NCBI RefSeq assembly: GCF_050920415.1
Contig: NZ_CP169309.1
Direction: 5' to 3' (one strand)
Origin: Escherichia coli
Lineage (GTDB): Bacteria > Pseudomonadota > Gammaproteobacteria > Enterobacterales > Enterobacteriaceae
DNA: 64,000 nucleotides
Part shown: in pieces, positions 16,460 to 22,321 of the stretch
How the letters are laid out: every line of letters starts with the position of its first letter
Position numbering within the stretch: the stretch's first letter is position 1
Notes under the pieces: generated by a model
The model's database searches: none
Told to the model about the DNA's origin: nothing
Seen by the model: only the letters and a program-made list of their open reading frames with translations
Position numbers and translations under genes: made by a program

Positions 16460-17683
16460 TTATGGGGTTATATTCTGGTAATGATTTGATAAGCGAATTC
16501 TTTTGCCAGTTGGTATTTCTATTTCCACCCCATAATTTATAGTTTTTTCATCAGGTAGCGATCTCTTTAAATAAGGTGCGTATGACATTTTTTTAGGATG
16601 AAACGTATCGTGTTGAAATATTTCGAATTGATATTCAGACATTTCTGCCCATGTTTGAATTTTATTGTATCGGGAGAGTGTCGTAAAGGCTTTAACTTGC
16701 TTATAACATTGTTTTTGGAATTCTTGCTGATATTTTATTATGTCGTTGTATGAAAGATTATTTACCCTGGTTTCTAATAATTCTATTATTGTCGAAGCAA
16801 TTTCCGCTTTTGCTCTTAAAGAGTTGTCATTAATGGTTAATAATGTTGAAAATAAACCATTGATTTGTTTGTCAACATATTGTTCATCTTTATGTAATTT
16901 TGTGATAGGGTTTTCCTTATGTGAAAAAATAGTATCAAATAAATTTGCGTCAGTGAAGTTTACATTAAGTAGATCTTCGAAATAAAACCTTGACAAGGTT
17001 AGAACGAACCCGGACAGGTCCTGTCCTGTCATATTGAAATCAATAAAGTTGGTTCCAGCAAAGACTTTCATCCTGTTTTCATTTTTACTGTGCTCAATAT
17101 ACAACCTTGTCATTTTTTGGTACAAGCGTTGAATATCTTTTATATCAGTTGGTAGATCAGTTCGTTGCCCAGAAAAATTTTTATTTTCGGAAGAAACGGT
17201 TTGGACACTGAATCTTACTGGTATTCCCTCTTCTACGAGAATTTTAGTTATGATTGGCTTATTGGGCTTAGGATTAAAGACAACAATGATTTTAGATTCA
17301 GAGTTTTTATTCTTTTCGTATCTAATGTTATTAATCTGATTAAGTATTGATTGTGTCTGTTGCGTAAGTGGTGTCGAACTTATCGTTTCAATGTTATTAA
17401 TAAGTTTTACAAGTTGAGCCACAACTTTTGAGTAGTCTGCATTTGTATATGTGGTGTTCGTGTGGCACGCATTAATTTGTTGGAGTTGTTGTTTCGCTAA
17501 ATCAAATTGTTCAGCGTTATATCCTTCTTCAGACAATGAAAAATTAACGGGTTGCTGTTCTTCCTGATTATCACAAGGCCACATCGGTGTGTTTGGTGTT
17601 TTAACATTGTCGGTATCTGTTGTGCGGTTATAAATATCGCCGTGATATGTGTTTATCATACCTGGGGTAAAGTCAATTGACAT
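16460..17683 (-). CDS. yhiS: YhiS, uncharacterised protein, 407 aa; intact here (IS5-disrupted pseudogene in K-12 MG1655)
   Basis: Single 407-aa ORF in a strongly AT-rich block; position between slp and ars genes matches yhiS; no IS5 sequence present. Confidence 0.8.
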
Positions 17684-18263
17684 AACATTCCTTATTGTTC
17701 ATCTATTTCGCTAAATTTTTGCAAATCGGAGAATTAGAACAGGAATGGATTTTCTTCTACGCGGAAATAAACACAATGCGTCATATCTTCCTGATATAAT
17801 TACCTTTAACTTCCCTTTCATTTCCACCCGGTAATATTTGTGTATAAAAAAAGGGCAGTGATAGTATCGTAAAGGAAAACATTAACAACTATCAAAAAGC
17901 GCTCATTTTAAAAAGTTATGATGTTCTCCGATAGTGTGTGAAGTGATATTTTTGTGATGTTTTAGATGTGTAATAATGAACCAGGTTGAAGTGTATTTAA
18001 AAATGTGTTGTATTGGCGACTGAAATCTGCCCTTTAAAAGGGGGGATAGCACTGAGACAAAGAGGCATTGCTTCTCCGATAAAATGTCAGAGAAGCATGA
18101 TTGCGTGGTGATTGTCGATTGATGACTTACTGACGGATCCGTCATCATTCTCAAAGCATTAGTTAAGTTATTTGTGATTTTTAAGGATTATCCTATCTAT
18201 GATTTTCTACTCAGAAGGATAAGACACTCACAATGCTCCTTATAGTTTACTGCTGGCATCTAT

Positions 18264-19277
18264 TTAAAATAGCATTTGAGTCAAATAGCCCATCAAGATA
18301 GCCATACCTAAGATAACCGTCAGGAATGCAACTATCATCGGTATTCTGAACATTGATTTAAGTAATATCACTTCCGTCAGGCTTGCTCCGGCACTGCCGA
18401 TGATTAATGCCATTAATGCTCCCGGACCCATTCCTTTTGTCATCAGAACAGATGCCAGAGGGATAACCGCCTCTGCCCGGATATACAGCGGGATTCCGAC
18501 AACGGCGCTCAATGGGATGGCGAAGGGATTATCTGCCCCTGCATGAGCGGCAATCCACTCTGAGGGAATAAAGCCATAAATAAAAGAGCCTATTAATACC
18601 CCTAACAAAAGATATGGCAGTACATCTTTAAACTGTTGCAACGCATCTTTGGTGGCTAGTTTTATGGGATTAATACTTACCACAGCTTTGGTACTGCAAC
18701 AGTTTACTACAGGTTTCTCAATGGCTTTAGCCGCTGGACTACAGCAACTCACTTTTATTGGCGTATAAGTCGTCCCCGGCGAAGTTTTGGCTGGAGAGCA
18801 ACAATTTGCTGATGAGCTTTTACTGGCAATGATATGACGTTCAAATCTCAGAGAATCCAGGATAATACTGGCAAGTACGGAGACGCCGGCGGCGATAATC
18901 GCGTACAACAAGGTAACTTTCCAACCAAAGGTCACCCACATTAACCCGACGATAATGGGATTAAGTAACGGTGAAACAAATAAAAAAGTGAGAGTCGGAC
19001 CAAACCCGGCTTTCGCTGACAACAATCCACGTAGCATGGGTATTGTCGAGCAACTACAGAACGGGGTAACGGCTCCCAACAGAGCAGCCAGGAGATAGCC
19101 TCTCCCTTTTCTGGCCCCCATCATCTGCTGGATTTTATGGTCTGGCACCTTTTGTCTTATCAGGCTGACACCGGCACTAATCACTATAAACAGCAAAGAA
19201 AGCTCGACGGCGAGAAACACAAACATCTCTGCGGCATCTTGCAGCATCGCAAGCCAACTACTCATAAGTAACCTCAT
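18264..19277 (-). CDS. ArsP-family (DUF318) permease, putative organoarsenical efflux permease, 337 aa
   Basis: Polytopic membrane protein with TPFCSCSTIP motif (ArsP signature TPFcSCSxxP) and Cys-rich central loop (CCSP...SCCSP...NCCS); not present at this position in K-12. Confidence 0.75.
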   Translation of the reverse strand: MRLLMSSWLAMLQDAAEMFVFLAVELSLLFIVISAGVSLIRQKVPDHKIQQMMGARKGRGYLLAALLGAVTPFCSCSTIPMLRGLLSAKAGFGPTLTFLFVSPLLNPIIVGLMWVTFGWKVTLLYAIIAAGVSVLASIILDSLRFERHIIASKSSSANCCSPAKTSPGTTYTPIKVSCCSPAAKAIEKPVVNCCSTKAVVSINPIKLATKDALQQFKDVLPYLLLGVLIGSFIYGFIPSEWIAAHAGADNPFAIPLSAVVGIPLYIRAEAVIPLASVLMTKGMGPGALMALIIGSAGASLTEVILLKSMFRIPMIVAFLTVILGMAILMGYLTQMLF

Positions 19278-19290
19278 TGAATAAAACTAT

Positions 19291-19347
19291 ATTTCCAGAA
19301 TAATCGAAATAAAGTTCAGATCAAGATATTTCTGGTATTATCGAAAT
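19291..19347. promoter_or_regulatory. Two similar 20-bp dyad sites (ATTTC-N10-GAAAT) in the divergent promoter region; candidate ArsR-family operators
   Basis: atttccagaataatcgaaat (19291-19310) and atttctggtattatcgaaat (19328-19347) between divergent genes. Confidence 0.45.
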
Positions 19348-19372
19348 ATCAACCAGACAGAGGGGGTGACAC

Positions 19373-19693
19373 ATGCAATTGGAAGAGGTCGCTAAGGCAC
19401 TGAAAGAGTTAGGTCATCCGACCCGTTTGTTCATATTTAAGCATCTGGTCAAAGCGGGGGAACAAGGTTTGCCGGTCGGTGAGTTGCAAAAGCAGCTTGG
19501 GATACCCGGCTCTACACTCAGTCACCATATTTCAGCACTGGTATCGGTAGGGTTGGTCAAACAAAACCGTGAGAGTCGGACGCTGATGTGTGTTTCGCAA
19601 TACGCAATGCTGGAAGCGATAATTGAATTCTTACGTGAGGAGTGCTGCGTAAACAGCAAAACAGATAGCGAAGGAGCCACGAAGAACAAATAA
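19373..19693 (+). CDS. ArsR/SmtB-family transcriptional regulator, 106 aa, with C-terminal vicinal cysteines (Cys91-Cys92)
   Basis: Winged-helix core (LSHHISALVSVGLV); lacks the helix ELCVC metalloid site of canonical ArsR; divergent from the ArsP-like gene. Confidence 0.75.
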   Translation: MQLEEVAKALKELGHPTRLFIFKHLVKAGEQGLPVGELQKQLGIPGSTLSHHISALVSVGLVKQNRESRTLMCVSQYAMLEAIIEFLREECCVNSKTDSEGATKNK

Positions 19694-19713
19694 GGGGGCA
19701 TATCCCCCTATAG

Positions 19714-20139
19714 TTATTTCAGGCGTTTACCCGCTTCATCAACCACTTTCTCGCCATCTTCCTTGGTGAACGCGCCTTGTTGCGCATCTGGCAGAATTTC
19801 CAGCACGACTTCTGAAGGGCGGCACAGGCGAGTTCCCAGCGGCGTCACCACAATCGGGCGATTAATCAGAATCGGGTGCTGAAGCATAAAGTCGATTAAC
19901 CGATCGTCAGTAAATTTATCTTCTGCAAGGCCCAGTTCCTCATACGGCTCGACGTTTTTACGCAACAGCGCGCGTACGGAAATCCCCATATCGGCAATGA
20001 GTTTGACCAGCTCATCGCGCGTTGGCGGTGTTTCCAGATAATAGATAATGGTCGGTTCTGTACCGCTGTTGCGGATCATCTCCAGCGTATTACGCGACGT
20101 GCCGCAGGCCGGGTTGTGATAAATAGTAATGTTGCTCAT
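19714..20139 (-). CDS. arsC: Arsenate reductase ArsC, 141 aa
   Basis: ORF track 141 aa; MSNITIYHNPACGTSRNTLEMIR... recognised. Confidence 0.96.
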   Translation of the reverse strand: MSNITIYHNPACGTSRNTLEMIRNSGTEPTIIYYLETPPTRDELVKLIADMGISVRALLRKNVEPYEELGLAEDKFTDDRLIDFMLQHPILINRPIVVTPLGTRLCRPSEVVLEILPDAQQGAFTKEDGEKVVDEAGKRLK

Positions 20140-20151
20140 ATCAGTATCTCA

Positions 20152-21441
20152 TTACGATGTGAAAGAGAGACGAAGCGCCAGCGCGGTAAGCGTCACAAAC
20201 AGCACCGGCAGGGTCATGATAATCCCTGTACGGAAGTAATATCCCCAGCTGATAGTCATATTCTTCTGCGAAAGTACGTGCAGCCATAGTAGCGTTGCCA
20301 GGCTACCAATCGGTGTAATTTTCGGCCCCAAATCGCAGCCAATCACGTTGGCATAAACCATCGCTTCTTTGATGACACCAGATGCCGTGCTGCCATCAAT
20401 GGACAACGCGCCAACCAGTACCGTCGGCATATTGTTCATAATAGAAGAGAGGAAGGCGGTGAGGAATCCGGTGCCGAGTGTCGCCGCCCACAGGCCGTGA
20501 TCCGCCAGCACGTTGAGTACTCCAGAAAGATATTCCGTTAGTCCGGCATTGCGCAGGCCATAAACCACCAGATACATGCCGAGCGAGAAGATGACAATCT
20601 GCCAGGGGGCACCGCGCAGCACTTTACCCGTATTAATCGCATGACCGCGTTTAGCGACGGCAAATAATATCAGCGCGCCCACTGCCGCAATGGCGCTTAC
20701 CGGAATGCCGAGCGGTTCCAGGACGAAAAATCCCACCAGCAGAAGCAGTAAAACAACCCAGCCAGTTTTGAAGGTGGCAGGATCTTTAACCGCTTCTACG
20801 GGAGATTTAAGCAGCGCCATGTCGTAGTTCTGCGGAATATCTTTGCGGAAATAGAGATGCAACATCACCAGGGTAGCCAGTATTGCAGCGATATCCACCG
20901 GCACCATCACCGAGGCGTATTCGCGAAAGCCGAGGCTAAAGAAATCTGCCGAAACGATATTCACCAGATTGGAGACAATAAGCGGCAGGCTGGCGGTATC
21001 GGCAATGAATCCGGCCGCCATAACAAACGCCAGCGTAGTGCCTTTGCTGAACCCTAAAGCCAGCAGCATGGCGATGACAATCGGCGTCAAAATAAGCGCC
21101 GCGCCATCATTGGCAAACAGGGCCGCAACGGTAGCACCGAGCAGGACAATCCAGGTAAACAGCAAGCGACCGCGCCCATTGCCCCAGCGTGAGACGTGCA
21201 GCGCCGCCCATTCAAAAAAGCCGGACTCATCCAGCAGCAGGCTGATGATAATGACGGCAATAAACGCAGCCGTCGCGTTCCAGACGATATTCCACACCAC
21301 CGGAATATCGCCCGGATGGACCACGCCAGTAACTAACGCCAGTACGGCGCCCAGTGTCGCACTCCAGCCGATGCCTAAACCTTTCGGCTGCCAGATAACC
21401 AATACGATGGTCAGGACAAAGATAGCGCCCGCCAGTAACAT
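20152..21441 (-). CDS. arsB: Arsenite efflux pump ArsB, 429 aa
   Basis: Recognised from [23 protein letters not shown]...; track ORF extends 7 codons upstream to 21462. Confidence 0.94.
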
Positions 21442-21495
21442 CATGCCTCCTGGATAAAACACATTCGAATATTCATATGTGTTTAGATAAATTTT

Positions 21496-21849
21496 TTAAC
21501 TACAAATATTCTTACTGTCTGCGGAACAATTTTGTCTGGCGAGGTTACGGACAATCACCTGAACCTTTTCCTGTTCGCATCGCCAGGCCTGCTCAATAAT
21601 TTTCGCCGCCCATGCTGGAATATGCGGCGATAAACGGTAATGAACCCACTTTCCTTGCTTGCGGTCCAGCAATAGCCCACTTTCACGCAGTAATGCCAGA
21701 TGGCGGGAGATCTTGGGCTGCGACTGATCGAGGGCAGTGCACAGATCGCAGACGCATAACTCTCCCAGTTCGCTGAGCAGTAAAACGATGCCCAGACGGG
21801 TTTCATCGGCAAGAATTTTGAAGAGTTGGATGGGTAACAGAAATGACAT
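21496..21849 (-). CDS. arsR: Arsenic-responsive repressor ArsR, 117 aa
   Basis: ORF track 117 aa; ELCVCDLC metalloid-binding motif; recognised. Confidence 0.95.
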   Translation of the reverse strand: MSFLLPIQLFKILADETRLGIVLLLSELGELCVCDLCTALDQSQPKISRHLALLRESGLLLDRKQGKWVHYRLSPHIPAWAAKIIEQAWRCEQEKVQVIVRNLARQNCSADSKNICS

Positions 21850-22002
21850 ATTGCGCTCCTGATTGTTGCACTTAGTGTCTCTCTTCGAAGCGGATAAGTC
21901 AAAAACATATATGTTTTAACGAATGCATAAGTGCAAAAGTAAGTAATAGGTGTGAATTTTGAGTTGGGTATTCATTTGAAAGGAAGGCTGAATCAGGATG
22001 TA

Positions 22003-22088
22003 AAAAAACCGACTTTGCGTCGGTTTTTTACTCTTCAGCCAGAGTTGGTGGCTCTGGCTGGAGTGAGAATGCCCACATCTAACGGTTC
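22003..22088 (-). ncRNA. agrA: AgrA small RNA (dinQ-antisense family); boundaries approximate
   Basis: First copy of a roughly 120-bp repeat; minus-strand intrinsic terminator hairpin ccgactttgcgtcgg plus U-run at 22002-22029. Confidence 0.55.
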
Positions 22089-22235
22089 AATACTATTAGC
22101 CAGTGGCTAACATTGCAAGCGTTAGCGATTTCTTCAGCTGGCGAAGGGACAGTTTGCTATACATGGTGGTGAAAGAGGATTGATATACTTTCATCGGGTC
22201 GCTGCCGTACCAAGCCTTGTCCGAATCCGGACGTA

Positions 22236-22321
22236 AAAAAACCGACTTACGTCGGTTTTTTTACTCTTCAGCCCTGAGTTGGTGGCCCTGGCTGGAGTGA
22301 GATAGCCATCATCTAACACAT
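22236..22321 (-). ncRNA. agrB: AgrB small RNA, antitoxin-type antisense regulator of dinQ; boundaries approximate
   Basis: Second repeat copy; minus-strand RNA is complementary to a segment in the dinQ 5' UTR (22483-22515); terminator hairpin 22238-22263. Confidence 0.55.

What the first reader, a model, noticed from the sequence alone, without database searches (positions are those of the whole stretch)
18264..19693. Two-gene module absent from K-12: ArsP-like permease with its own ArsR-family regulator, next to arsRBC
Between yhiS and arsC lie a 337-aa polytopic membrane protein with the motif TPFCSCSTIP and a Cys-rich loop, and a divergent 106-aa ArsR/SmtB-family regulator. The TPFcSCSxxP motif is the signature of ArsP methylarsenite/organoarsenical efflux permeases. 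The regulator lacks the helix ELCVC site of the canonical ArsR (present in arsR at 21496-21849) and instead has vicinal Cys91-Cys92 near the C-terminus, as in ArsR repressors reported to be selective for trivalent organoarsenicals. This suggests a second, organoarsenical-specific resistance circuit beside the inorganic arsRBC operon. AT content and absence from K-12 suggest horizontal acquisition or loss in the K-12 lineage.
Basis: partly seen in the sequence, partly recalled or inferred. Interest (0 to 1): 0.6.

Follow-up and report, generated by a model that had tools for sequence, protein, structure and literature searches.

The report
Organoarsenical sensor-and-pump gene pair
Next to the ordinary arsenic-resistance genes, this E. 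coli strain carries an unnamed two-gene unit that closely matches a known methylarsenite sensor and a known organoarsenical pump; about 41% of E. coli genomes have it and K-12 has deleted it.

Summary
Window 18264-19277 (-) encodes a PF03773 permease with TPFCSCSTIP and three Cys-Cys pairs in a disordered central loop. Window 19373-19693 (+) encodes a 106-aa ArsR/SmtB regulator with Cys91-Cys92 and no ELCVC site.

- The regulator is 58% identical, without gaps, to SpArsR of Shewanella putrefaciens 200, the published MAs(III)-selective repressor. The recognition helix is identical and all three cysteines align.
- The 95-bp divergent control region holds two ATATTTC-N10-GAAATA palindromes. One shares 22 of 22 bases with the S. 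putrefaciens arsP promoter.
- The permease is 37% identical over its full length to Campylobacter jejuni ArsP, with the two essential cysteines aligned.
- Orthologous pairs sit beside ars genes in other genera and plasmids: arsH, arsDA, acr3, arsEFG or arsRBC.

K-12 keeps a decayed remnant of the regulator's 3' end, so it lost the module by deletion. Of 5426 complete genomes, 2221 carry the module and 3169 carry the K-12-type junction. [quoted passage not shown]

Verdict: a new, unannotated member of a known kind. Substrate selectivity is untested. Unexplained: an invariant third cysteine in the regulator and a hypervariable Cys-rich loop in the permease.

The parts
18264..19277 (-). ArsP-type permease gene. 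The longest ORF is 337 aa; the likely start is Met5 at 19265, giving 333 aa.
   Evidence: ORF list. PF03773, E 6.6e-53. 37% identity over 335 aa to C. jejuni ArsP, E 2e-71. AlphaFold model with pLDDT 85 and pTM 0.79.
19038..19067 (-). Codons for TPFCSCSTIP (residues 71-80). Cys74 and Cys76 are the putative substrate-binding thiols, at a break in the second membrane helix.
   Evidence: Sequence. C74, S75, C76 and P80 are invariant in 37 homologues. They align with CjArsP Cys65/Cys67. The model shows a helix break at residues 71-74.
18669..18830 (-). Disordered, hypervariable Cys-rich central loop (about residues 150-203) with three Cys-Cys pairs.
   Evidence: pLDDT below 50 for residues 156-197. 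In orthologues the loop is 38-113 aa, always Cys-rich, and often built of tandem CC-containing repeats.
19278..19372 (.). Divergent control region shared by the permease and regulator genes.
   Evidence: Sequence. Promoter-like hexamers on both strands.
19289..19311 (.). Operator-like palindrome O1, ATATTTC-N10-GAAATA. It overlaps the promoter-like site that faces the regulator gene.
   Evidence: Conserved in orthologous loci.
19326..19349 (.). Operator-like palindrome O2. Window 19324-19345 is identical, 22 of 22 bases, to the S. putrefaciens 200 arsP promoter. O2 overlaps the promoter-like site that faces the permease gene.
   Evidence: A perfect or near-perfect copy is present in most orthologous loci.
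19373..19693 (+). SpArsR-type ArsR/SmtB repressor gene (106 aa).
   Evidence: 58% identity to SpArsR. Best solved relative is AfArsR, 6J05. AlphaFold model with pLDDT 90 and the canonical winged-helix fold.
19643..19648 (+). Codons for Cys91 and Cys92, the vicinal pair at the C-terminal end of helix alpha5 and the putative MAs(III) site.
   Evidence: Invariant in 26 aligned sequences, including SpArsR and AfArsR. Helix alpha5 spans residues 77-91 in the model.
19589..19591 (+). Codon for Cys73, in wing strand beta2. It is invariant in the SpArsR clade and its role is unexplained.
   Evidence: Strand 70-75 in the model.
19693..19709 (.). GC-rich hairpin between the convergent regulator and arsC genes, terminator-like on both strands.
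19714..21849 (-). Context: the canonical arsR-arsB-arsC operon for inorganic arsenic, convergent with the regulator gene.

Best explanation
The module is a self-contained sensor and efflux circuit for trivalent organoarsenicals, such as methylarsenite and probably reduced phenyl or roxarsone-type arsenicals.

1. The 106-aa regulator is an SpArsR-type homodimeric repressor. It binds the two ATATTTC-N10-GAAATA palindromes in the 95-bp spacer, and these overlap both divergent promoters.
2. A trivalent organoarsenical, R-As(OH)2, bonds to the two thiolates of Cys91 and Cys92 at the end of helix alpha5. This distorts the dimer and releases the DNA, so both genes are derepressed.
3. The permease is an ArsP-type secondary carrier built of two four-helix repeats. 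It binds the arsenical between Cys74 and Cys76, at the break in the second membrane helix, and expels it using the proton-motive force.
4. Inorganic arsenite, which needs three thiolates, is left to the neighbouring arsRBC operon.

What is shown here: homology, motif and cysteine conservation, operator conservation and gene context. What is inferred from the characterised homologues SpArsR and CjArsP: ligand selectivity, energy coupling and repression.

The module is ancestral in Escherichia and was deleted in the lineage that includes K-12.
For: Regulator:
- It is 58% identical over 92 aa, without gaps, to SpArsR (E 5e-41). The recognition helix IPGSTLSHHISAL is identical. Cys73/91/92 correspond to SpArsR Cys83/101/102.
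- SpArsR is described as MAs(III)-selective because it lacks AfArsR Cys102 (PMC11868830; PMC13236881). [quoted passage not shown]
- The best solved relative is AfArsR (6J05), with the CC pair aligned to Cys95/96.

Operator:
- 22 of 22 bases are shared with the S. putrefaciens arsP promoter.
- Both palindromes lie in the spacer and no other match occurs in the 64-kb window: 4 matches, counting both strands, against 0.17 expected by chance.
- They overlap promoter-like hexamers and are conserved in about 30 orthologous loci.

Permease:
- PF03773.
- 37% identity over the full length to a protein that NCBI names organoarsenical efflux permease ArsP of C. jejuni. TPFCSCSTIP is identical and Cys65/67 align.
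- In a neighbour-joining tree CjArsP is sister to this clade, and the second permeases that sit in the same loci fall outside.

Pairing and context:
- The regulator and permease travel together in more than 60 loci.
- Aeromonas: next to arsR-arsD-arsA-acr3-arsC.
- Fusobacterium: next to arsE-arsF-arsG.
- Crenobacter and Endozoicomonas: next to arsA and acr3.
- Salmonella Infantis pESI-like plasmid: permease divergent from regulator-arsH-sigma factor-arsD-arsA. [quoted passage not shown]

Loss in K-12: a scar remains, and genome counts are 2221 with the module against 3169 with the K-12 junction.
Against: - No transport or induction data exist for this protein pair.
- Identity to CjArsP is only 37%. 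The CSC motif is shared with Cu/Zn exporters of the same Pfam family. The permease scores somewhat higher on the SO_0444 model than CjArsP does, 116 against 86 bits.
- The regulator clade keeps an invariant third cysteine, Cys73. It could complete a three-thiolate site between subunits and allow As(III) or Sb(III) sensing.
- In Crenobacter and Endozoicomonas the orthologue follows arsA directly. ArsA partners normally move inorganic As(III).
- The SpArsR sequence was rebuilt from a machine-read PDF that had lost about two bases, so residues 27-33 are inferred.
- I could not read the primary SpArsR and ArsP papers.
- About 58% of E. coli genomes have lost the module, and the closest relative of this window has IS2 inserted in the permease gene. 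Selection for the module is therefore not universal.
Confidence: 0.7

Rival explanations
1. The pair is a general trivalent-metalloid system for As(III), Sb(III) and organoarsenicals alike, not an organoarsenical-specific one. The invariant Cys73 of one subunit would complete a three-thiolate site with Cys91 and Cys92 of the other subunit. The permease, with its Cys-rich loop, would export inorganic As(III), in some hosts as the membrane partner of ArsA.
For: - Cys73 is invariant in all SpArsR-type orthologues but absent from AfArsR-type proteins.
- It lies in strand beta2, just before alpha5. In ArsR/SmtB dimers the start of one alpha5 lies near the end of the other, as in the alpha5 sites of SmtB and CzrA (established knowledge).
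- The orthologues in Crenobacter and Endozoicomonas sit immediately after arsA.
- About 40% of the ArsP homologues in ars operons are the only transporter encoded there (PMC4435449).
Against: - SpArsR has the same three cysteines, yet is reported as unresponsive to As(III).
- CjArsP did not transport As(III) (PMC6205960).
- E. coli already has ArsB next door.
- Aeromonas keeps a separate AfArsR-type three-Cys regulator for its arsDA-acr3-arsC genes, right beside the SpArsR-type pair. That suggests a division of labour.
Confidence: 0.15
2. The permease exports a thiophilic metal such as Cu, Zn, Cd, Hg or Ag, as SO_0444 of Shewanella oneidensis does. Its position next to ars genes would then be incidental.
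For: - The only NCBIfam hits of the permease are the SO_0444 Cu/Zn exporter and SaoE models.
- CSC is the motif shared by those families.
- SO_0444 mutants are sensitive to Zn and Cu (PMC3219624).
- A related pair on an ISL3 element sits next to the sil genes on one E. coli plasmid.
Against: - The score of 116 bits is far below the 300-bit cut-off, and CjArsP itself gives the same kind of sub-threshold hit.
- SO_0444 is paired with a ZntR/MerR-type regulator, not an ArsR.
- The regulator here is orthologous to an arsenical sensor.
- Independent neighbourhoods in at least six genera and on plasmids are arsenical.
- The ISL3 element is mobile, so its neighbours say nothing about function.
Confidence: 0.05
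3. In E. coli the module is a decaying relic with no current function: a fragment of a larger arsP|arsR-arsH-...-arsDA island that has lost its downstream genes.
For: - 58% of complete genomes carry the deletion scar.
- IS2 disrupts the permease gene in the closest relative.
- The chromosomal copy lacks arsH, arsD and arsA, which follow the regulator on plasmids.
Against: - In this window both ORFs are intact.
- All invariant family residues and both operators are kept.
- The same two-gene arrangement beside arsRBC is kept in E. whittamii, Citrobacter gillenii and Buttiauxella.
- The regulator is 96% identical between E. coli and E. whittamii.
Confidence: 0.07

Closest known systems
SpArsR and arsP of Shewanella putrefaciens 200 (Sput200_1227 and Sput200_1226), the MAs(III)-selective repressor and its target permease gene
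   Same: - The regulator is 58% identical, without gaps.
- The recognition helix is identical.
- The same three cysteines are present (83/101/102 against 73/91/92).
- There is no cysteine in the tail.
- A 22-nt stretch of the promoter is identical, and the palindrome type is the same.
- The regulator gene is adjacent to an ArsP-type permease gene.

   Different: - The host and genomic setting differ. Here the pair stands alone and is convergent with arsRBC.
- According to my memory of the abstract of Chen et al. 2017, SpArsR orthologues also control arsH. arsH is absent here, although it is present in the plasmid version.
- The C-terminal tail is longer here (VNSKTDSEGATKNK against SGQ).
- I could not obtain the Sput200_1226 protein, so permease orthology to it is untested.
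ArsP of Campylobacter jejuni (TC 2.A.119.1.1), the methylarsenite and roxarsone(III) efflux permease
   Same: - Both belong to Pfam family PF03773.
- They align over the full length at 37% identity.
- The TPFCSCSTIP motif is identical and the two essential cysteines align.
- Both are built as 4+4 helices with a central loop, and even CjArsP has one Cys-Cys pair in that loop.

   Different: - CjArsP is regulated by a canonical ELCVC-type ArsR within an arsP-arsR-arsC-acr3 operon. Here the regulator is SpArsR-type and divergent.
- The loop here has three Cys-Cys pairs and is hypervariable across orthologues.
[quoted passage not shown]
   Same: - The permease is 75-80% identical and the regulator 92% identical.
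- The divergent arrangement and the operators are the same.

   Different: - The chromosomal module has only the first two genes.
- On many plasmids the cluster is likewise cut down to the pair, by IS26 or IS1.
AfArsR of Acidithiobacillus ferrooxidans (PDB 6J05), the type 2 As(III)-responsive ArsR
   Same: It is the best solved relative (E 2.7e-10), with the vicinal cysteine pair at the end of alpha5 aligned.
   Different: - Identity is only 32%.
- AfArsR has a third cysteine (Cys102) in the tail that gives three-coordinate As(III) binding. The window protein has none there, and instead has Cys73 in beta2.
SO_0444 family Cu/Zn efflux transporter (TC 2.A.119.1.6)
   Same: It belongs to the same Pfam family and TC subfamily and has the same CSC motif.
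   Different: - The score is 116 bits against a curated cut-off of 300.
- It is regulated by a ZntR-like protein.
- Its phenotype is a metal phenotype.

Membership tests
ArsP / PF03773 permease family (TC 2.A.119) | Full-length match to the PF03773 profile | tested here: met
   E 6.6e-53, residues 13-334 against model positions 3-293 of 294.
ArsP / PF03773 permease family (TC 2.A.119) | [quoted passage not shown] | tested here: met
   AlphaFold model with pTM 0.79: helices up to residue 148, disordered loop 150-203, helices 204-336, with matching breaks in the second helix of each half. Family description in PMC7176098.
Organoarsenical efflux permease ArsP (CjArsP-type) | Conserved C(S/T)C cysteine pair (CjArsP Cys65/Cys67) in the membrane domain | tested here: met
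   Cys74/Cys76 align with Cys65/Cys67 and TPFCSCSTIP is identical. The residues are invariant in 37 homologues. The motif is also present in Cu/Zn exporters, so it is necessary but not sufficient.
Organoarsenical efflux permease ArsP (CjArsP-type) | Closer to CjArsP than to other PF03773 subfamilies | tested here: inconclusive
   37% identity. A neighbour-joining tree places CjArsP as sister to the clade, with two co-resident paralogues outside. No SO_0444 or SaoE sequence was available to include, and no bootstrap was done.
Organoarsenical efflux permease ArsP (CjArsP-type) | Encoded with ars genes and under an ArsR-family repressor | tested here: met
   A divergent ArsR-family gene is adjacent to arsRBC here. 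Orthologues lie beside arsH, arsDA, acr3 or arsEFG.
Organoarsenical efflux permease ArsP (CjArsP-type) | Transports MAs(III) and Rox(III) but not As(III) | not testable with these tools
   This needs MIC, accumulation or everted-vesicle assays.
SpArsR-type MAs(III)-selective ArsR | Vicinal cysteine pair at the C-terminal end of alpha5 (SpArsR Cys101/Cys102) | tested here: met
   Cys91/Cys92 align with it. The alpha5 helix ends at residue 91 in the model.
SpArsR-type MAs(III)-selective ArsR | No third cysteine in the C-terminal tail (AfArsR Cys102 equivalent) | tested here: met
   The tail VNSKTDSEGATKNK has no cysteine. A few orthologues in other genera do have one.
SpArsR-type MAs(III)-selective ArsR | Orthology to SpArsR | tested here: met
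   58% identity over 92 aa, no gaps, E 5e-41, identical recognition helix. The SpArsR sequence was rebuilt from a supplement with about two bases lost.
SpArsR-type MAs(III)-selective ArsR | Same operator DNA as the SpArsR-controlled arsP promoter | tested here: met
   A 22 of 22 base match, plus a second site at 20 of 22. The palindromes are conserved across orthologous loci. I do not know the actual SpArsR footprint.
SpArsR-type MAs(III)-selective ArsR | Derepression by MAs(III) and not by As(III) | not testable with these tools
   This needs a reporter fusion, or EMSA or fluorescence binding with the purified protein.
Canonical R773/E. coli-type ArsR (type 1 site) | ELCVCDLC cysteine triad in the DNA-binding domain | tested here: not met
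   The corresponding region, GLPVGELQKQLG, has no cysteine. The protein does not reach the PRK10141 model, which the neighbouring arsR hits at 232 bits.
SO_0444 family Cu/Zn efflux transporter (NF033936) | Score at or above the curated equivalog cut-off | tested here: not met
   115.8 bits against a cut-off of 300.

The most novel reading that the evidence does not exclude
The published two-cysteine picture of this sensor clade may be incomplete. Cys73 is invariant across the whole SpArsR clade (47-100% identity) and could form an inter-subunit site, or a redox switch, with Cys91 and Cys92. That would broaden or gate what the repressor senses. In parallel, the permease's hypervariable loop of repeated Cys-Cys units could act as a built-in, fast-evolving metallochaperone, ArsD-like, that captures arsenicals in the cytoplasm and hands them to the Cys74/Cys76 site. 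Together they would make a tunable capture, sense and export device. This device has been mobilised on conjugative plasmids, many of them from food-animal isolates, and on an ISL3 insertion sequence, where organoarsenical feed additives could co-select antibiotic-resistance plasmids.
Probability: 0.2. Interest if true: 0.6.

Novelty: new member of a known kind. Interest (0 to 1): 0.42.

Why it matters
Methylarsenite and reduced aromatic arsenicals are far more toxic than arsenite. Gut and soil microbes produce them, and so does the breakdown of the feed additives roxarsone and nitarsone.

- If the prediction holds, about four in ten E. coli strains carry a dedicated sensor and pump for these compounds that is not named in current annotation. 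RefSeq calls the two proteins "permease" and "ArsR/SmtB family transcription factor". The laboratory reference strain K-12 has deleted the pair.
- Several hundred conjugative Enterobacteriaceae plasmids carry a close copy. They include pESI-like Salmonella Infantis megaplasmids with blaCTX-M-65 and APEC ColV plasmids.
- This bears on how arsenic-biosensor and resistance experiments done in K-12 hosts are interpreted, on possible co-selection of multidrug-resistance plasmids by organoarsenicals, and on naming.
- It also yields a compact native E. coli promoter and repressor pair that could serve as an MAs(III) biosensor.

Tried and rejected
Dead ends:
- The primary papers on ArsP (Chen 2015) and SpArsR (Chen 2017) are not held. 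I used secondary descriptions and a supplement instead.
- A literature search for Cys65, Cys67 and CjArsP returned nothing relevant.
- The supplement of PMC13236881 held no ArsR sequences.
- The permease has no solved relative by sequence or by fold: Foldseek against the PDB gave no match with E at or below 0.001. No structural mechanism could therefore be borrowed.

Considered and rejected:
- TPFCSCS as a specific signature of organoarsenical ArsP. The CSC motif spans the whole family, including Cu/Zn exporters.
- Horizontal acquisition inferred from AT content. The module is 46-48% GC against 49.5% for the window, and K-12 carries a deletion scar.
- Adjacency to arsRBC as the main functional argument. 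On some plasmids the pair stands alone, with no ars genes beside it. The stronger evidence is the recurrence of ars neighbours in independent lineages.
- Membership of the SO_0444 family, because the score is below the cut-off.

Not resolved:
- On which side of the membrane the Cys-rich loop lies. Simple hydropathy with the positive-inside rule, counting four full membrane crossings, would put it in the periplasm. A re-entrant reading of the broken second helix would put it in the cytoplasm. I only assume the cytoplasm, because free thiols are needed.
Full report
**1. Observation**

The ORF scan and the raw sequence show a 337-aa ORF at 18264-19277 on the minus strand. A 106-aa ORF lies at 19373-19693 on the plus strand. 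The two diverge across a 95-bp spacer, between yhiS (16460-17683) and arsC (19714-20139).

- The permease contains TPFCSCSTIP at residues 71-80. It has Cys-Cys pairs at 159/160, 178/179 and 193/194.
- The regulator has no ELCVC motif. The neighbouring arsR (21496-21849) has GELCVCDLC. The regulator's cysteines are at 73, 91 and 92.
- Pfam gives a full-length PF03773 (ArsP_1) match for the permease, E 6.6e-53. It gives HTH_20 and HTH_5 for the regulator.
- NCBIfam places the regulator in the ArsR/SmtB subfamily, 61.7 bits against a cut-off of 55. For the permease it gives only sub-threshold hits: SO_0444 Cu/Zn exporter at 116 bits against 300, and SaoE at 90 against 325.
- The permease probably starts at Met5 (19265), which is preceded by GAGG. 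RefSeq annotates 333 aa in orthologues.

**2. Distribution and history in E. coli**

A megablast of window 17700-19720 against 5426 complete E. coli genomes finds the module in 2221 of them, at the same yhiS|arsC slot. RefSeq names the products only "permease" and "ArsR/SmtB family transcription factor". K-12 and O157:H7 match only the left flank.

K-12 nevertheless retains a decayed remnant of the last 60 nt or so of the regulator gene. L002 4388-4449 matches window 19600-19661 at 80.6% identity, and REP-like repeats follow it. That K-12-type junction is present in 3169 genomes. The species is therefore dimorphic at this locus, and K-12 descends from a deletion rather than the window strain from an insertion.

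- E. whittamii, Citrobacter gillenii and Buttiauxella also have the pair beside arsRBC.
- GC content is 46-48% for the module, 49.5% for the window and 33% for yhiS. The composition argument for foreign origin is weak.
- The closest relative of the window (99.9% identity) has IS2 inserted in the permease gene.

**3. The regulator is an SpArsR orthologue**

Its best solved relative is AfArsR (6J05, E 2.7e-10). There FLREECCVNSK aligns with YLTENCCHGTR, so Cys91/92 correspond to AfArsR Cys95/96.

The literature describes SpArsR of Shewanella putrefaciens 200 as AfArsR-like but lacking the third cysteine. It is therefore described as responsive to MAs(III) and not to As(III) (PMC11868830; PMC13236881).

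A biosensor paper gives the locus tags: arsR is Sput200_1227 and arsP is Sput200_1226. Its supplement gives the construct sequence (PMC12124457). Translating it, and repairing a loss of about two bases in the machine-read text, gives a 105-aa protein whose cysteines fall at 83, 101 and 102. That agrees with the published numbering.

- The window regulator is 58% identical to it over 92 residues, without a gap (E 5e-41).
- The recognition helix IPGSTLSHHISAL is identical.
- The AlphaFold model has pLDDT 90. It shows the canonical winged helix, with Cys73 in strand beta2 (residues 70-75), alpha5 spanning 77-91, and a disordered tail.

**4. The operator is shared**

The spacer holds two 23-24-nt palindromes of the form ATATTTC-N10-GAAATA, at 19289-19311 and 19326-19349, with starts 37 bp apart. 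The pattern finds no site anywhere else in the 64-kb window: 4 matches, counting both strands, against 0.17 expected by chance. Each overlaps a sigma-70-like hexamer pair, one facing each gene.

Window 19324-19345 is identical at 22 of 22 positions to the S. putrefaciens arsP promoter fragment used as the SpArsR-controlled element. A second site in that fragment matches at 20 of 22.

The palindrome, usually in two copies, recurs upstream of the regulator gene in about 30 orthologous loci, from Aeromonas to Halomonas and Xenorhabdus.

**5. The permease is an ArsP relative**

I recovered the C. jejuni ars operon from a metagenome contig using a published arsP primer. Its 315-aa product is, by exact sequence, what NCBI names "organoarsenical efflux permease ArsP [Campylobacter jejuni]".

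- The window permease aligns with it end to end: 37% identity, E 2e-71. TPFCSCSTIP is identical and Cys65/Cys67 fall on Cys74/Cys76.
- According to PMC6205960, CjArsP exports MAs(III) and Rox(III) but not As(III) or pentavalent arsenicals.
- The motif by itself is not diagnostic. C(S/T)C is universal in ArsP homologues (PMC4435449). It is also the most conserved motif shared with the SO_0444 Cu/Zn exporters and with SaoE. CjArsP gives the same kind of sub-threshold SO_0444 and SaoE hits as the window protein.
- In a neighbour-joining tree on 317 columns, CjArsP is sister to the clade that holds the window protein. Two second permeases from the Alistipes and Fusobacterium loci lie outside. There was no bootstrap, and no SO_0444 sequence was available.
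- The AlphaFold model (pLDDT 85, pTM 0.79) shows two helical halves. Breaks occur in the second helix of each half, at residues 71-74 and 265-267. The central loop, residues 150-203, is disordered.
- Nothing similar has been solved.

**6. Gene neighbourhood elsewhere**

A scan of one genome per species returned 80 loci. Wherever the permease is at least 47% identical, a regulator at least 47% identical is almost always next to it. The neighbours are as follows.

| Source | Arrangement |
|---|---|
| Aeromonas piscicola | pair, then an AfArsR-type arsR (CCAGHPEAC), arsD, arsA, acr3, arsC |
| Crenobacter | arsR, arsC, arsA, permease, then one unidentified ORF, then acr3 |
| Endozoicomonas | arsA, permease, regulator |
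| Fusobacterium | arsG, arsF, arsE divergent from permease, arsR, a second permease |
| Salmonella Infantis pESI-like plasmid with blaCTX-M-65 | permease divergent from regulator, arsH, sigma factor, arsD, arsA |
| Other plasmids (pDETEC21, APEC ColV) | the pair alone, cut off by IS26 or IS1 |

- NCBI names arsG an aromatic aminobenzylarsenical efflux permease and arsF a nitrophenyl compound nitroreductase subunit.
- A tblastn search of PLSDB finds 1001 plasmids with a homologue, 628 of them in the 60-80% identity band. Most are conjugative plasmids of Escherichia and Salmonella.
- Among the 60 records listed, many come from chicken, turkey or swine isolates. This was not tested against sampling bias.

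**7. Mechanism proposed**

What is shown here is homology, conserved residues, conserved operators and context. What is inferred comes from the characterised homologues.

1. The dimeric repressor occupies O1 and O2 and blocks both promoters.
2. A trivalent organoarsenical bonds to Cys91 and Cys92 at the end of alpha5 and releases the repressor.
3. The permease binds the arsenical between Cys74 and Cys76, at the break in its second membrane helix, and extrudes it at the expense of the proton gradient.
4. Inorganic arsenite is handled by arsRBC.

My confidence is about 0.9 that the module is arsenical, and about 0.7 that it is selective for organoarsenicals.

**8. What does not fit neatly**

- Cys73 (SpArsR Cys83) is invariant in all 38 distinct orthologues. 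It is absent from AfArsR-type proteins. Summaries of SpArsR mention only two conserved cysteines. Its position, just before alpha5, would allow an inter-subunit site with the Cys-Cys pair of the partner subunit.
- A few orthologues have an additional tail cysteine, for example CCVNSNC and CCVNDITHC.
- The permease loop ranges from 38 to 113 residues, is always Cys-rich, and is often built of tandem CC-containing repeats.
- Orthologues placed directly after arsA hint that some clade members move inorganic As(III).

These points sustain the main rival, a general trivalent-metalloid system (0.15). The metal-exporter rival (0.05) and the relic rival (0.07) are weaker.

**9. Novelty**

The kind of system, an SpArsR-type repressor with an ArsP permease, is known, and the plasmid cluster has been labelled arsP-arsR in print. 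My searches found no paper that describes the following points:

- the chromosomal two-gene version beside arsRBC in about 41% of E. coli genomes;
- the deletion scar in K-12;
- the shared operator;
- the generic public annotation of both genes.

I rate it a new member of a known kind, of moderate interest.

Noticed in passing
L047 5392-8377 (Pseudomonas bharatica CSV86); also L040, L043, L046, L075 and L084 2700-5460: A 2,986-bp ISL3-family insertion sequence carries a 47%-identical paralogue of the pair as passenger genes: a 108-aa SpArsR-like regulator, a 344-aa ArsP-like permease and a 425-aa ISL3 transposase. At least 22 loci with identical match statistics came from one P. bharatica genome, and the 8 of them compared by BLAST are 99.9-100% identical. 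The same element, 99.6-100% identical, is in Shewanella, Sphingopyxis, Novosphingobium and Acinetobacter. Paracoccus halophilus (L077) carries the same gene pair by tblastn statistics but was not compared at DNA level. An E. coli IncF plasmid has the same three-gene arrangement next to silE/silS.
   Followed up: partly
L087 20565-22902 (NZ_CP169399.1), equivalent to window 18264-19277: The closest relative of the window (99.9% identity) has an IS2 element inserted in the permease gene, splitting it into two pseudogene fragments.
   Followed up: no
L002 4270-4600 (K-12), equivalent to window 17981-19713: K-12 keeps a decayed remnant, about 60 nt, of the regulator's 3' end, followed by REP-like repeats. 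3169 of 5426 complete genomes share this junction.
   Followed up: yes
window 19589-19591; alignment A3: Cys73 of the regulator is invariant across the whole SpArsR-type clade but absent from AfArsR-type proteins. The summaries I could read name only two conserved cysteines.
   Followed up: partly
L011 5598-5894, L022 5606-5905, L025 5571-5876, L082 5548-5889: Some orthologous regulators have an extra cysteine a few residues after the Cys-Cys pair (CCVNSNC, CCVNDITHC, CCIDGNPHC). It might restore three-coordinate As(III) sensing, as reported for engineered SpArsR.
   Followed up: no
window 18669-18830; L018 6001-7020; L016 6001-7152: The permease's central loop is hypervariable in length (38-113 aa) and made of tandem CC-containing repeats in some species. 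Crenobacter has four repeats of about 11 aa, and Aeromonas simiae has six Cys-Cys pairs. Protein length also varies among E. coli copies (322-358 aa).
   Followed up: partly
L008 5142-5525 (Aeromonas piscicola): Aeromonas has an AfArsR-type three-cysteine regulator heading arsD-arsA-acr3-arsC, immediately next to the SpArsR-type pair. Two sensor types sit side by side there, as in E. coli.
   Followed up: partly
window 16460-17683: yhiS is an intact 407-aa ORF of only 33% GC with no NCBIfam match. In K-12 it is a pseudogene split by IS5.
   Followed up: no
window 22000-22082 and 22233-22316 (-): Two copies of the AgrB antisense RNA (Rfam RF02891, 90 and 84 bits) lie between arsR and gor. This is the known dinQ/agrAB locus.
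   Followed up: no
L082 7107-7421 (Xenorhabdus yunnanensis): A 104-aa ORF just downstream of the orthologous permease matches only the middle of arsenite methyltransferase ArsM. It may be a fragment or a frameshifted gene.
   Followed up: no
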